Shown: in pieces, positions 1,411 through 62,602 of the stretch
Layout of the letters: every line of letters begins with the position of its first letter
Position numbering within the stretch: position 1 is the first letter of the stretch
NCBI GenBank assembly: GCA_964016885.1
Contig: OZ024741.1
Location: 190,402,001 to 190,466,000 of the forward strand
Direction of reading: 5' to 3'
Source: Eledone cirrhosa
Taxonomy: Eukaryota
Length of the DNA: 64,000 bases
The notes under the pieces: model-generated
What the model was told of the DNA's origin: nothing
The model's database searches: none
The model's input: the letters and a program-made list of their open reading frames with translations, nothing else
Made by a program: the position numbers and the translations under genes

Positions 1411-1463
1411 ATTTTGTCTGATGAGTACGTACTGTTGTACATCCGAAATATGTATAATAAAAT
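1411..1463 (+). ncRNA. Minimal type I hammerhead ribozyme (family A, Penelope pLTR-type)
   Basis: attttgt CTGATGA g-tac-gtac tgtt gtac-atc-c GAAA tatgta TA ataaaat; stem I pairs with one G-U; stem II imperfect; stem III near-palindromic. Confidence 0.7.
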
Positions 1464-1684
1464 CTAATTGATCAAAAGAACATCTATTTTATTAATATTT
1501 GTATTTTAATATATGTATATACATGTATTTATGTGTGCGTGTATATATATTTGTATGTATACACTTTTCTGTGTATATGTTTGTACTGTATATAATTATG
1601 TGTGTGTATTTTTCTGTGTATGTGTATATATGTATGTGTATGCTATGCATGTATATATATATATATATATATATATATATATAT

Positions 1685-2385
1685 ATAAAGTTAGTCCTTC
1701 ATCAGTGATCTTCCAACCATCATTGGTATTTCATCGCTTTAAAGACCATATACCTCCGGTTGGTGCGAGCAACGGCTAAAAAAAGTCGTTGGGACATGTA
1801 AATAAAGGGGACACGAGAGTGTAAACAAACAAAGATGGTGAAGCAACGAAAAGTGAGGAAGAAGGAGTCAAGTCCCAAATTTCCATGAATATAAATTCGG
1901 TGAAATCGTGAACGAGAGAGAATAAAGACCATCAAACCTGGTTGGAATGTGAGCAAGGAAGGAATTCCGTACGGGTCTAGCGGGAGGAAGAAGGGATCTA
2001 GTCTGGGAATTCGGTGAACGTAATTTCTGTGAAATCGTAGACGAGAGAGAGAAAAAAAGCGACCTGCCTGACCAAGGGTGCGAAAGAAAAGAATTACGCA
2101 CAGGTCAAACGGGAAGAAGGAGGAGGAGAGGTAGTAACAGAGAGTGTGTGAGTGAAGGATGAGGAAGAGGCTAACAGAGAGAGTGACTGTTAGAGAGGGT
2201 AAAGATACAGAGAAAGAGGAAGCAGTAAGAACGAAATAGACGTGTAACAGCGGGGGAAAAAATATGTGTAAATATGAGAATAAACGTGCTGCGTGGTTGC
2301 TAATGGGTTACATATGAATAAAGTTAGTCCTTCATCAGTGATCTTCCAACCATCATTGGTATTTCATCGCTTTAAAGACCATATA
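1685..2385 (-). mobile_element. 633-bp unit bounded by identical 68-bp direct repeats, inserted in (TA)n; possibly non-autonomous Penelope/retrozyme-like
   Basis: 1685-1752 is identical to 2318-2385; the repeat has CTGATGA on the minus strand; TA runs on both sides. Confidence 0.45.
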
Positions 2386-2864
2386 TATATTTATTTTATT
2401 TTCTACATTTGCTTACCACGTGTGTTTGTTTATTTATTTTTATTTGTGTCTTTCTCCTCTTCTGTATCGCTGTCAACTTTTTAATTTCTCATTTCTTATT
2501 TTTTATTTTTTTATTTGTATGTATTTGACTTCATTTTGATTTCATGTAGATGTATATTGTCTTAGCAGTGTATGTGACTGCCTTATTCAGTATATGTTTG
2601 TTCATTGATTTTTATTTATTCTTATAATTATGTGTGTGTGTGTATGTATATATCTATATATGTGGGTGCGTATGTATGTGTGTATGTATGTGTATGTGTG
2701 TGTATATATATATATATATATATATATATATATGCAAAAGTTCTATTTAAAGTTGTTGGGATACAATAAGTAAATATTTTTATAACTGATATAAAGCACT
2801 CGACACATTTTTGGAGTAGATATACGATATTAATAAATGCAAACTATATTTATAAAACCATATT

Positions 2865-2929
2865 TATTTCATTATACATATTTCAGGGATACCACATTAA
2901 ATTATGGTATGCCTTCATCAGACAAAATA
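2865..2929 (-). ncRNA. Minimal type I hammerhead ribozyme (family A)
   Basis: Reverse complement of the motif at 4499-4563. Confidence 0.8.
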
Positions 2930-4498
2930 CAATATATAACAGTTTTAAATATAAATTTAAAATATAGTATAATTAATTAAGTAATTTTAGTTAATATATA
3001 GAACCAGTCGATAATCCATTAGATTCCTTCACCTTTTTCTTTTTAAACTTTCTTCCTAAATATAAACATGGATATAATAAACTACTCTAAAATGTCTATA
3101 CTTCCAATGTATTAAATAAAATATACGTAAGGTAAATTTCTATATTAAATATAAGGTTATCTGTAGAATCATTGGGTTTTTTTAATTTTTTTAAATCTTT
3201 TAAATTATTTTTATTTGTTTTGATTATGATAGCTTCTCATAACGTTCACAAGTATACCCTCTCAATATCTTGATTGAGATATACGTAGGATAAATTTCTA
3301 TACTAAATATATAAAACATATTATTTTAACTTAAGATACTCTATAGTGTTTTAATGATATTTAATGCTTTGATATTTCTAGATTTCTTTTGACTATATAG
3401 TTGCATTTCCAAAATATATTCCTTTGGTATTTTAAATTTATATTGTTGTGGTTATATTTACAAATTATAATCCTTTGGTAATTTATTGGATTATCTCTAT
3501 ACACATGCATATGTGTGTATTAACATGCATAGAAAGTGTTATAGATTTTTTGTGTTTGTATATGTGTCTGTATATATACATGAGTGATGCATGAGGACGC
3601 ACGCAAATATTTATTTATACATATGTATGTGTATATATGTATGTGTATATATCTATGTGGTTGAAAGGTATGTTGCAGATGTGCATAATATTAAACACAT
3701 GAATGGTAATCGTATATATGAGGACATGATTGTTAATCGTATATATTTGTATATATATACTGTGAAATTTTTATAACACAATGAGCGTATAGCAGTGATT
3801 AAGAGAAATCATTTACGTTTTGTATGGCTATATTGTTGGCTTGAGTAAACATAATTTCTATTTTCAGGACGTGCGTATCTATATGTATGTATATATACAT
3901 ATATATTTGTATGTCTTTGCATAAAATACTAATCTCTATAGCAAGGGTACATTTTAAACTCAGATTTTGGTATATTGATCTCAAGTTTCTAAACTAAACA
4001 TATGGTCATTATCGAACAATATTTAATTTCTCATATTATATATCTATGTCCCATTCATGAATATTGATACTTATATTTATATTTTTATTATTCATTTCAT
4101 ATAAATTGTTAACTCAACTTAATATGACATGGCGTAAAGTTGTCACTGTCCCCCTCTCTCTATATAGTATTTCTCTCTCTTGAGTTTCTCTTTCTGTATG
4201 ATGACTCTGTTGCTTTCCTTTGTTTTTCTAATTCCTTCCTTTTCTTTCTTTTTTATTTCCTCCTATCTTTATCTATCTCTTTCTTTTCTCCATACATTTC
4301 TCTCTCTCTCCGATATTTCTCCAGATTTTCTTTCTCTCTCTCTGTCTTTGTTCTTTTCTCTTTCTTTCTCTCCGTCTTTTTCTAATTATGCTTAACACTA
4401 TGACTTATATAAACAAATCACTATCCAGACAGCCTCCAAAAGTAATGGTTGTATTTTAAAGGGTACGTCAAACCTATTTGTAAAACTGTTATATATTG

Positions 4499-59824: not shown

Positions 59825-60055
59825 CAGTGTGTCAGTGATGTTGACTGACGGGGGAGACAGTGTATGTGTGAGATGTTGACTGATACAGTGACAGTGTGTA
59901 TGTGTGTGATGTTGACTGATGGGGGAGACAGTGTGTGTGTGAGATGTTGACTCATACAGTGACAGTCTGTATGTGTGTGATGTTGACTGATGGGGGAGAC
60001 AGTGTGTGTGTGTGTGTGTGTGTGTGTGTGTGATGTTGACTGATGGGGAGAGACA
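59825..60055. repeat. Diverged tandem repeat of about 32 bp (gatgttgactgatgggggagacagtgtgtgt)
   Basis: About 6 copies of gatgttgact followed by gacag and TG runs. Confidence 0.85.
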
Positions 60056-61400
60056 GGGTGATACTTTTAGCAAGAATATGCCATAAGATTGTAAACAATT
60101 AATTATGCATAAACAACAAAATATATAAAAAAAAACTAATATTGTTAATCTAATTAGAATGTTAAGATAGATGTAGGATTGGAATTAGCTGATAAATCAG
60201 CAAACATTACTATATTGTTTCAACCTGATTGATTTATCAATGAATATTAATAAAAATAGAATATATGTAGGCATGTGATTGTACTTCCCCAGTTCTGTAT
60301 CAATGGCACCGTTTCAGAGAACGGGAAAACAATATTTATTCAATAACCAAAAAGATAAAATAAATAAATAAATAAAAATTATGTAAAAGTCAAACTAACA
60401 TAAAAGAAAACAATAATTTAAAGAAATTAATACATAAATAGATACATTTTTGTTTAAAAAAAAACAATAAGGAAAATAACGTACATAATTGTTGATGGTA
60501 TGTCAATTTTCCCCAGAATGGTTAGAGTATTTTGAAATAATAATAATAATTGTTTCTACTTTTGACACAAGGCCAGCAATTACCCAGTGCATTACTGGTA
60601 CTTTATTTTATCGACCCCGTAAGGATGAAAGGCAAAGTCAACCCCAATAATAATATTAATAATAATGATTTCTACTATTGGCACAAGGCCAGCAATTTGG
60701 GGGAGGGGAAAGTTGATCAAATCGACCCCAATGTATTACTGGTGCTTTATTTTATTGACCTCGTAAAGATGAAAGGCCAAGTTAACCCTGGCAGGATTTG
60801 AACTCAGATCAGATCGCAAAGGGCTGCAACACTCTACCGATACTGCCAAACCACTGCCCTTAATAATAATAATAATACAGAAGCATGTCTAAATGGTTGA
60901 TGGTGAAAACATTCAAGAGGTATACAGTGGATAAATTAACATAAAACAATAGTAGTAATGAAAGGGATAGAGAGATGATGATGTCTGAAGATGATGATGT
61001 CTGAAGATGATGATGTCTGAAGATGATGGAAAAAAGATACGTCAGAAAGTAGCAGAAGGGAACAGATATGTGACAAAAAGAAACAAACAACAATAATAGA
61101 TGAGATGTCTAAATGTGACGAAATGTCTACATTTACAACATTTTATATGAATATATATATATATATATATATATATATATATATATAAATATATATATAT
61201 GTGTGTGTGTATGTGTGTTTGTTTATATATATATATATATGGGATAACAAATTATTGTTATAGGTAATCCAGTTAGAGGTTGTGAGTACTCTGTATTGTG
61301 GATAGTTTTAACGTACGCCATTGTTCGACTCAACAAAAGGTTTCCTTAGTTAGGTGGCGAGTTCCCGGGAATTCCTATGCAGGTTAATCTTGGAGTAATA

Positions 61401-61617
61401 ATAGTGAAAGAGTGAAGAATAACATGGTCAACAGTACAAAAAGGGTTTTATTTACAGTATTAACAATTGTTTCATTGATTAGGGTGTCTTAAGATTGAGT
61501 GGCACAACTTCAAGTGATTAGCAATCTTTAGACACCCTAATCAATGAAACAATTGTTAATACTGTAAATAAACCCTTTTTGTACTGTTGACCATGTTATT
61601 ATTCACTCTTTCACTAT
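61401..61617. repeat. Near-perfect palindrome, arms 97 bp, loop 24 nt
   Basis: 61401-61497 is the reverse complement of 61522-61617 with about 3 differences. Confidence 0.95.
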
Positions 61618-62540
61618 ATATATGTGTCTGTGAGTGAGTGTGAGAGTGTGTGTGTGTGTGTGTGTGTGTGTGTGTGTGTGTGTGTGTGTGTGTGTGTGTG
61701 TGTGAGTGTGAGTGTGTGTGTGTGTGGGGGAGATGACAACATGGAATAAGCACTATGACATGCCTTTAGGCTAAGCTTATTTTAAGAAATGTAGATAAAG
61801 ACAAAAAATAATAATCAATACAACACTATATAGAAAATAAACAAGGTGAGAAACAAGGAAAATAGACAAAACATACAAACAGAAATATATAGCAAATATG
61901 TTTATATACACATTTACAATCTCATACATACATAGTATGAATGATGCAGAGAAGGAAAAGAATATCTAAAATCATATTACACATTCTCTAAATATGAAAA
62001 ATTTTATATATATGCATCTATCTATTGTATATAGGAATTTCTGATGAGAAGTTTGAAAAGGGAGTTCAATGCAGAAGAAATGTCTCAAGGGACTTCATTT
62101 TTAATGTACCAAATTTTCAGTTATCTTGAATTTTACAGATGCATAGCTATACAATGCCTACTGAATGTATAGATATTTATATACATATAACCCATCCTAA
62201 TGTAATAAGATAAAAATACTTACAACCATAATTCTTCATATAATCTAATTGATTATATATACAATACTATAACTCATAATATAGGTAAATAAATCTTTTC
62301 CCCCAAATTAACATAAATGCTAGCCCTTCCTCCTTTCTCTTCTTTCCTACGCATACAATAACTTATAATTATTTAAATTTTAATAACGTTTTTTCAGCCT
62401 TTTTACATAAACCTTATTTGCATACTCATCTTAATAATTTGAAATATCTGACTTTTCTCTTCCCTTCACTTTCCAGGGATAACTTGAACCGTTAAGGTAT
62501 ATTATCCTTGGTTATGTCAAAATTTATAAAACACACTTCG

Positions 62541-62602
62541 TATTTTATCTGATGATAGCGTACCAACATTTTTGGTACCCTTGAAATATATATAATAGAA
62601 TA
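62541..62602 (+). ncRNA. Minimal type I hammerhead ribozyme (family A)
   Basis: tattttat CTGATGA tagc gtaccaa cattt ttggtac cctt GAAA tatata TA atagaata; same downstream flank (atggttttataaatatagtttccatttat) as the 4499 copy. Confidence 0.78.

What the first reader, a model, noticed from the sequence alone, without database searches (positions are those of the whole stretch)
1411..62602. About eleven minimal hammerhead ribozyme motifs from about six families in 64 kb
Seen: motifs at 1411, 2865, 4499, 4750, 5727, 10767, 15758, 16754, 51955, 54455 and 62541. Each has stem I-CUGANGA-stem II-GAAA-very short, mostly palindromic stem III-cleavage site-stem I' (three have core or site changes), and several are followed by AATAAA and lie beside (TA)n. 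Established: Penelope-like pLTRs and non-LTR retrozymes carry such minimal type I hammerheads, which cleave as dimers through the palindromic stem III. Inference: this genome holds several, possibly unannotated, non-autonomous ribozyme retroelement families; only family D is tied to a coding element here.
Basis: partly seen in the sequence, partly recalled or inferred. Interest (0 to 1): 0.75.

Follow-up and report, generated by a model that had tools for sequence, protein, structure and literature searches.

The report
Penelope retroelement hammerheads plus one retrozyme
The eleven motifs are real hammerhead-ribozyme sequence folds at about the density seen across this genome; most sit at the ends of broken copies of ordinary Penelope-type jumping genes, and one belongs to a 431-base non-coding repeat that is likely copied by Penelope enzymes.

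Summary
All 11 motifs are present. One descriptor gives 8 hits in the window against 0.2 in shuffles, and 29 hits in 400 kb sampled genome-wide. The window is therefore near average, and the genome holds roughly 200,000 such motifs. The 'non-autonomous' reading mostly fails. Longer copies show that five of seven families are 3' pseudo-LTR ends of Penelope-like elements coding reverse transcriptase and GIY-YIG nuclease: three Hydra-type (A, A2, B) and two Neptune/Nematis-type (C, D). F is probably a sixth. The U3-A8 core and the extra base before stem II are published variants. Only family E (16754) is non-coding: a 431-nt head-to-tail monomer in arrays up to 5.7 units. Its insertions end at two fixed sites beside (TA)n, 24 of 52 are inverted, and 12 of 13 scorable inversions use one site per arm, as autonomous family A does (11 of 12). 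This supports Penelope-driven retrozyme mobility, already proposed in print; the scan noted the same pattern on other DNA. Cleavage and circular RNA are untested.

The parts
1..88 (+). End of a Hydra-type GIY-YIG endonuclease reading frame (family A2); it begins about 380 bases before the window
   Evidence: collinear with other A2 copies
1411..1463 (+). Family A2 hammerhead in the 3' pLTR, one stem II change
2720..2953 (-). Inverted arm of a family A insertion, with tail; hammerhead at 2865-2929
2946..4611 (+). 5'-truncated family A Penelope-like element (3' UTR plus pLTR), ending in (TA)n; hammerhead at 4499-4563, AUA site
   Evidence: about 93-95% identical to copies with RT and EN frames
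4702..4884 (-). Older family A 3' end; hammerhead at 4750-4814
5660..5830 (+). Family B 3' end (Hydra-type element; stretch searched); hammerhead at 5727-5764, GUU site, weak Rfam HH9 match
10590..10827 (-). Family C 3' end between TA tracts; U3-A8 hammerhead at 10767-10804, GUA site
14846..16008 (+). Family D element: GIY-YIG remnant and 3' pLTR; hammerhead at 15758-15800 with damaged GAAA
16492..16887 (-). Family E, 0.93 of a 431-nt non-coding monomer, ending at the long site beside (TA)n; hammerhead at 16754-16796; ATGCAAAT octamer upstream
51927..52132 (.). Family F inverted pair; degenerate hammerhead at 51955-52038 on the minus strand, 3' half only on the plus arm
54400..54699 (+). Family D 3' end between TA tracts; intact hammerhead at 54455-54497, CUU site
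62510..62642 (+). Old family A-related 3' end; hammerhead at 62541-62602
1688..1765 (-).

Best explanation
The motifs are hammerhead folds at the 3' ends of truncated Penelope-like retrotransposon copies, plus one 431-base non-coding tandem unit (family E) that is likely pasted by the same kind of enzyme. Shown: families A, A2, B, C and D continue upstream into reverse-transcriptase and GIY-YIG frames in longer copies; E has no such frame and runs head to tail; A and E insertions end at two fixed sites beside TA tracts, one site per arm when inverted. Inferred: the Penelope protein nicks (TA)n and starts cDNA at internal sites downstream of the ribozyme on an RNA that is intact across the cleavage site (uncut multimer or re-ligated circle). 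It usually stops early, leaving single-ribozyme stubs, and priming from both sides of the cut would give the inverted arms. Cleavage would need two tandem copies or protein help, so most lone stubs are probably inactive.
For: B and C copies with an ORF between two direct hammerheads 4,568 and 4,979 bp apart; Pfam GIY-YIG above its cut-off and RVT_1 just below on the 938-aa C frame; 774 homologs, the listed ones mostly with RT and GIY-YIG-type domains. Hydra motifs CxCX5C, CxxC, CxH and DKT (Craig 2021 section 11). E: 33 complete monomers of 401-435 nt; arrays up to 5.69 units and longest stop-free frame 77 aa; no PLE frame continuous with E in 55 loci; direct insertions end at the two sites in 24 of 28; 24 of 52 loci inverted; 12 of 13 scorable inversions long/short, p about 0.001; family A 11 of 12. 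0 of 28 direct E 5' ends lie within 10 nt of the cleavage site. Stem I pair 3 of E is A-U 65, G-U 35, U-G 13, C-G 1 of 118, with the same changes in two other organisms' runs. Frangieh 2024 shows two internal start sites and uncut RNA as template for a PLE in vitro.
Against: No cleavage or RNA data. E has U-U at the first stem II pair in 115 of 118 copies, where G10.1-C11.1 is highly conserved in known motifs. No sequence link between E and any autonomous family examined beyond one 19-nt AT-rich match to A, E = 0.34, so its partner is unidentified. 11 of 24 inverted E loci could not be scored at both ends, and 1 was short/short. Loci were top BLAST hits, not random draws. The F coding link is weak (E 0.002-0.04). 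Pfam gave no RT or EN hit on the family A frames, so A rests on motifs and on 48% identity to B.
Confidence: 0.85

Rival explanations
1. All families are non-autonomous ribozyme retroelements.
For: In the window only D shows a coding remnant next to its motif; most top copies are short.
Against: Longer copies of A, A2, B and C carry RT and GIY-YIG frames collinear with the motif.
Confidence: 0.03
2. Family E is a degenerate pLTR or satellite whose arrays grow by DNA-level duplication after insertion, and its ribozyme no longer cuts; no RNA circle is involved.
For: U-U at the base of stem II; monomers within an array are closer (4.7%) than between loci (9.5%), which local duplication also predicts; a 920-bp array around family C is such a local amplification; Li et al. 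2026 discuss this route.
Against: 20 of 25 first-set insertions exceed one unit with random 5' phase and fixed 3' ends; stem I covaries; core and palindromic stem III are kept in other organisms.
Confidence: 0.2
3. E is mobilised by a LINE (RTE or CR1 type, abundant in the window) rather than by a Penelope protein.
For: RT fragments of other retroelements are common in the window; no homology of E to the PLEs examined.
Against: Two fixed start sites, a tail on one arm only, 5' inversions and (TA)n targets match the published PLE signature and family A here.
Confidence: 0.07
4. The motifs are chance matches in AT-rich, palindrome-rich DNA.
For: Individual folding z-scores are modest, -0.2 to -2.8.
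Against: 8 hits against 0.21 in shuffles; 29 against 0-2 genome-wide; unrelated stems around the same core in seven families.
Confidence: 0.01

Closest known systems
[quoted passage not shown]
   Same: Short or palindromic helix III, extra base before stem II (family D), U3-A8 core variant (family C, reported for Schistosoma Cercyon), mostly single motifs from truncated elements, close pairs on opposite strands, many families per genome
   Different: The taxon was not found in my searches; the estimated load of about 200,000 motifs is far above the 2,000-9,000 quoted there; B keeps an HH9-like extended stem I
Hydra clade of PLEs (Craig et al. 2021, PMC8557442; section 11 and passages read)
   Same: C-terminal GIY-YIG, CxCX5C linker, CxxC and CxH motifs, DKT in B, canonical hammerhead, (TA)n targets, tail at one end only
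   Different: Units of 4.0-4.6 kb rather than generally under 3 kb, owing to long 3' UTRs; no tree built
Neptune/Nematis clades of PLEs (motif definition from PMC8557442 passages)
   Same: RT then GIY-YIG with a CX4CxxC linker in families C and D; microsatellite targets
   Different: Clade not resolved between the two
Metazoan non-LTR retrozymes (Cervera and de la Pena 2020, PMC7229834, part 2, discussion and passages read; Li, Clavereau and Pollet, bioRxiv 10.64898/2026.07.22.740005, abstract, first part of results and passages read)
   Same: Family E: type I hammerhead in each 431-nt monomer, tandem copies, 36% GC, no ORF; both papers propose PLEs as the mobilising partner
   Different: E shows the insertion signature directly (two start sites, paired arms, (TA)n), which I did not see in the text read (the word 'tail' does not occur in the main text of Li et al.); U-U at 10.1/11.1; circular RNA not shown
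Poseidon PLE of Anolis in vitro (Frangieh et al. 2024, PMC11167929; parts 1-2 of 4 read)
   Same: Two internal reverse-transcription start sites defining a tail; AT-rich targets; uncut RNA as template
   Different: The tail is 57 nt in E and about 100 nt in A rather than 30-40 nt; non-autonomous templates were not tested there

Membership tests
Penelope-like element (EN+) | RT frame followed by GIY-YIG endonuclease | tested here: met
   C: Pfam GIY-YIG 28.3 bits (cut-off 22.6), RVT_1 E 2e-6 just under cut-off; D and B: sub-cut-off hits; A and A2: by homology to B only
Penelope-like element (EN+) | pLTRs with hammerhead, direct or inverted | tested here: met
   Direct pairs 4,568 bp (B) and 4,979 bp (C) apart; inverted arms in A, A2, B, D
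Penelope-like element (EN+) | Optional tail, often at one end only | tested here: met
   Family A, 11 of 12 inverted insertions; not scored for C and D (script stopped)
Penelope-like element (EN+) | Family F coding link | tested here: inconclusive
   Only EN-tail-like remnants, E 0.002-0.04
Hydra clade | CxCX5C linker | tested here: met
   Present in the A and B frames
Hydra clade | CxxC and CxH flanking conserved E and N; no CCHH | tested here: met
   C95, C98, N113, C122, H124 invariant in 4 of 4 aligned ENs; absence of CCHH judged by eye
Hydra clade | DKG changed to DKT | tested here: inconclusive
   DKT in B; NKT in the one A copy that covers it
Hydra clade | RWK motif and phylogenetic placement | not tested
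   N-termini broken in the copies read; no reference set for a tree
Hydra clade | Generally under 3 kb | tested here: not met
   About 4.0 kb (A) and 4.6 kb (B); the paper says 'generally'
Neptune/Nematis clades | CX2-5CxxC linker between RT and EN | tested here: met
   CX4CxxC in C and D
Non-LTR retrozyme (family E) | Type I hammerhead in each unit of a 150-450 bp tandem repeat | tested here: met
   33 monomers of 401-435 nt; up to 5 motifs per locus
Non-LTR retrozyme (family E) | No ORF, GC under 50% | tested here: met
   Longest stop-free frame 77 aa; GC 36%
Non-LTR retrozyme (family E) | Canonical core with G10.1-C11.1 | tested here: not met
   U-U in 115 of 118; other core positions canonical in most copies; no Rfam hammerhead match
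Non-LTR retrozyme (family E) | Self-cleavage and abundant circular RNA | not testable with these tools
   No run on record as RNA holds the sequence
Type-SGC hammerhead (motif at 1688-1765) | Block order site, GAAA, CUGAnGA with stems I and III | tested here: met
   13 distinct matches in 1.48 Mb, 12 of this kind; 1 in the 400-kb sample against 0 in 20 shuffles
Type-SGC hammerhead (motif at 1688-1765) | Direct stem II between the strand after CUGAnGA and the strand before GAAA | tested here: inconclusive
   Only the first pair forms, by eye; not analysed further

The most novel reading that the evidence does not exclude
Family E is a roughly 67,000-copy RNA circle with a non-standard U-U hammerhead that a Penelope reverse transcriptase copies by rolling round it from two fixed start sites, one on each side of a TA cut. 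It would be a compact natural substrate for proving that Penelope proteins mobilise animal retrozymes and for dissecting how their inverted ends form.
Probability: 0.4. Interest if true: 0.65.

Novelty: new member of a known kind. Interest (0 to 1): 0.42.

Why it matters
Hammerheads in Penelope pLTRs are established, so most of the finding is repeat annotation. Two things add value. First, the genome carries on the order of 200,000 such motifs (19-40 per 400 kb), and my searches found no hammerhead survey for cephalopods, the group this DNA resembles by recall. Second, family E gives insertion-level evidence for the published but unproven idea that Penelope proteins move retrozymes, with exact predicted start sites that can be tested in an existing in vitro system.

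Tried and rejected
Chance: rejected. Local enrichment of the window: not supported. The 920-bp array holding family C on contig C3 looked like a retrozyme but is a local amplification of a C stub, a TA tract and an unrelated repeat fragment. Hit 53445 is treated as chance. A Hydra-type frame 3.3 kb upstream of one F copy belongs to a separate inverted insertion and was not used as a link; five longer F stretches gave no PLE hit. The circular fold z-score of -8.95 for an E monomer is inflated by TA runs and short palindromes and was not used. RNA evidence: no RNA holder listed; the one guessed RNA run laid 0 contigs; neither counts for or against expression. A genome search with the scrambled motif returned nothing, not even the window's own copy, so it is uninformative. 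The strict pattern scoring of E ends caught only 2 pairs and was replaced by alignment scoring. End scoring for C and D stopped on a script error and was not repeated. Pfam hits to BLI1, SseK_NleB and SARS_3b were below their cut-offs and are spurious. A remembered snRNA-type octamer promoter in newt satellite 2 could not be confirmed. Literature searches; the octopus repeat paper PMC13282606 has no mention of ribozymes in its main text. Supplements were not read; those of Craig 2021 and Li 2026 may list related elements.
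Full report
Observation. The window is 64 kb of AT-rich (35% GC) animal DNA full of TA microsatellites, at G000:C2:190402001-190466000 of a 3.0-Gb assembly. All 11 motifs are at the stated places. A descriptor requiring the core, stem II, A15.1-U16.1, a second stem III pair and at least 3 bp of stem I gave 2, 6 and 8 hits at three stringencies, against 0.007, 0.03 and 0.21 in 150 local shuffles. Seven of the 11 pass at the loosest setting; 1411, 15758, 51955 and 62541 are damaged or diverged copies. 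Rfam recognises only 5727, weakly (HH9, 26.5 bits, gathering 52).

Is the window unusual? In 40 hand-spaced 10-kb stretches the same descriptor gave 12, 27 and 29 hits, against 0-1, 0-1 and 0-2 in 12 shuffles. That is 4.6 per 64 kb, so 8 is unremarkable (P = 0.10). Extrapolated, the genome holds about 217,000 motifs (Poisson range 19-40 hits per 400 kb); this is rough, since 5 of the 29 come from one array. AATAAA is family-specific: five of seven window families have it, but only 3 of 29 random hits.

Families A, A2, B. Family A has at least 1,416 candidate loci, the best 99% identical. Window 2946-4611 aligns at 93-95% with longer copies whose upstream frames encode an RT and a GIY-YIG-type endonuclease, and 2720-2953 is the inverted arm of the same insertion. 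Family B copies hold an ORF between two direct hammerheads 4,568 bp apart; its RT is 48% identical to that of A. The 1411 motif is a third family whose endonuclease frame ends at window position 88 and whose other copies are collinear across the 1.3-kb UTR. These proteins carry the CxCX5C linker (A, B), the CxxC and CxH motifs and, in B, DKT, which define the Hydra clade in Craig et al. 2021. They are longer than the usual 3 kb, and no tree was built.

Families C, D, F. Family C has U3-A8 in 25 of 25 aligned copies, a variant published for Schistosoma PLEs. One copy has a 938-aa RT plus GIY-YIG frame between two hammerheads 4,979 bp apart, with 774 homologs. Family D has RT and endonuclease frames directly upstream, and the extra base before stem II that Cervera and de la Pena list as typical. 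Both have a CX4CxxC linker, so they are Neptune or Nematis type. Family F is old (78-93% identity among hits), inverted in the window, and shows only faint endonuclease-tail remnants upstream; it is probably a decayed Hydra-type element.

Family E. Sequence downstream of the 16754 motif runs into the sequence upstream of it: the unit is a 431-nt monomer, 36% GC, longest stop-free frame 77 aa. Thirty-three complete monomers measure 401-435 nt, and arrays reach 5.69 units. Nine matches in 400 kb suggest about 67,000 copies (range 4-15 hits). I scored 52 loci, 25 from a monomer query and 27 from a multimer query, after dropping 3 overlapping loci. Of 28 direct insertions, 24 end at monomer position about 219 or about 276; 32 of 52 main ends abut TA runs; 24 of 52 are inverted. 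Of the 13 inversions scorable at both ends, 12 pair one short with one long end, 1 is short/short and none long/long (p about 0.001); 11 could not be scored. Autonomous family A gives 11 of 12. No direct 5' end lies within 10 nt of the cleavage site (0 of 28), so the template was intact across it. Monomers within a locus differ by 4.7%, between loci by 9.5%. Stem I pair 3 appears as A-U, G-U, U-G and C-G (65, 35, 13, 1 of 118), and relatives in two other organisms show the same changes. The first stem II pair is U-U in 115 of 118, which is non-standard. An ATGCAAAT octamer is exact in 60 of 70 copies; its role is unknown. No partner PLE could be named by sequence.

Mechanism. Shown here: the anatomy, coding links and end rules. 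From the literature: a Poseidon PLE protein nicks both strands of AT-rich DNA, starts cDNA at two internal sites that define the tail, uses uncut RNA, and its hammerhead needs the protein to cut (Frangieh 2024); minimal PLE hammerheads cut weakly and only as dimers. Inferred: early termination leaves single-ribozyme stubs; priming from both sides of the cut, one start site each, gives the inverted arms; E borrows this machinery, on a circle or on an uncut multimer. These two templates cannot be told apart from DNA alone. The two-sided priming reading and the lead to score paired ends came from earlier scan notes, and I tested them on E and A.

Comparison and verdict. Hammerheads in PLE pLTRs and animal retrozymes are known, and Li et al. 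2026 argue from phylogeny that retrozymes are non-autonomous PLEs. The scan has noted the same end pattern in this and other genomes. The finding is real but mostly ordinary: new members of known kinds. Its value lies in the motif load and in family E as a testable case. Interest 0.42.

Side observation. Prompted by notes on this genome, I found a motif with the order cleavage site, GAAA, CUGAUGA at 1688-1765 (minus strand), repeated 633 bp away at 2321-2385. Stems I and III pair well in 12 related matches, with some compensatory changes; stem II does not form directly. This resembles type-SGC hammerheads (Eckert 2023, passages read) and was not pursued.

Noticed in passing
window 1688-1765 and 2321-2385, minus strand: Scrambled-order hammerhead-like motif flanking a 633-bp unit beside a TA tract; the upstream copy starts at the predicted cleavage site, within TATA ambiguity. 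Already noted by the scan elsewhere in this genome.
   Followed up: partly
window about 16860-16870 (minus) and family E copies: Exact ATGCAAAT octamer in 60 of 70 E copies, about 110 nt upstream of the cleavage site; it recalls an snRNA-type promoter (from memory, unconfirmed).
   Followed up: partly
L293 (five copies, 311-bp spacing), L286 (522-bp spacing): Other tandem hammerhead repeats in the random sample, candidates for further retrozyme families; at least nine more hammerhead families appear in 400 kb.
   Followed up: no
G000:C3:68.085-68.108 Mb (L175-L178): About 25 tandem copies of a 920-bp unit made of a family C stub, a TA tract and another repeat fragment; puts U3-A8 hammerheads in tandem.
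   Followed up: partly
window 16008-16491: Families D and E end at opposite sides of the same 480-bp TA tract.
   Followed up: no
window 43927-47110: 53-bp minisatellite, about 60 copies at 97% match.
   Followed up: no
window 30770-31111 and 34214-35301, minus strand: Pif1 helicase fragment (Pfam) with neighbouring frames that look like a decayed Helitron (by recall).
   Followed up: no
window 51458-51787, 19641-19983, 61401-61617: Three further self-inverted repeats without a recognised hammerhead; possibly other inverted insertions.
   Followed up: no
window 33458-33521 and 53190-53249, minus strand: tRNA-like matches just above the Rfam gathering score inside a repeated element, probably tRNA-derived SINE heads.
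   Followed up: no
L266:2509-5322: Family C frame of 938 aa is open in this copy; several homologs are filed under bacterial symbiont genome bins, probably host DNA carried over.
   Followed up: no
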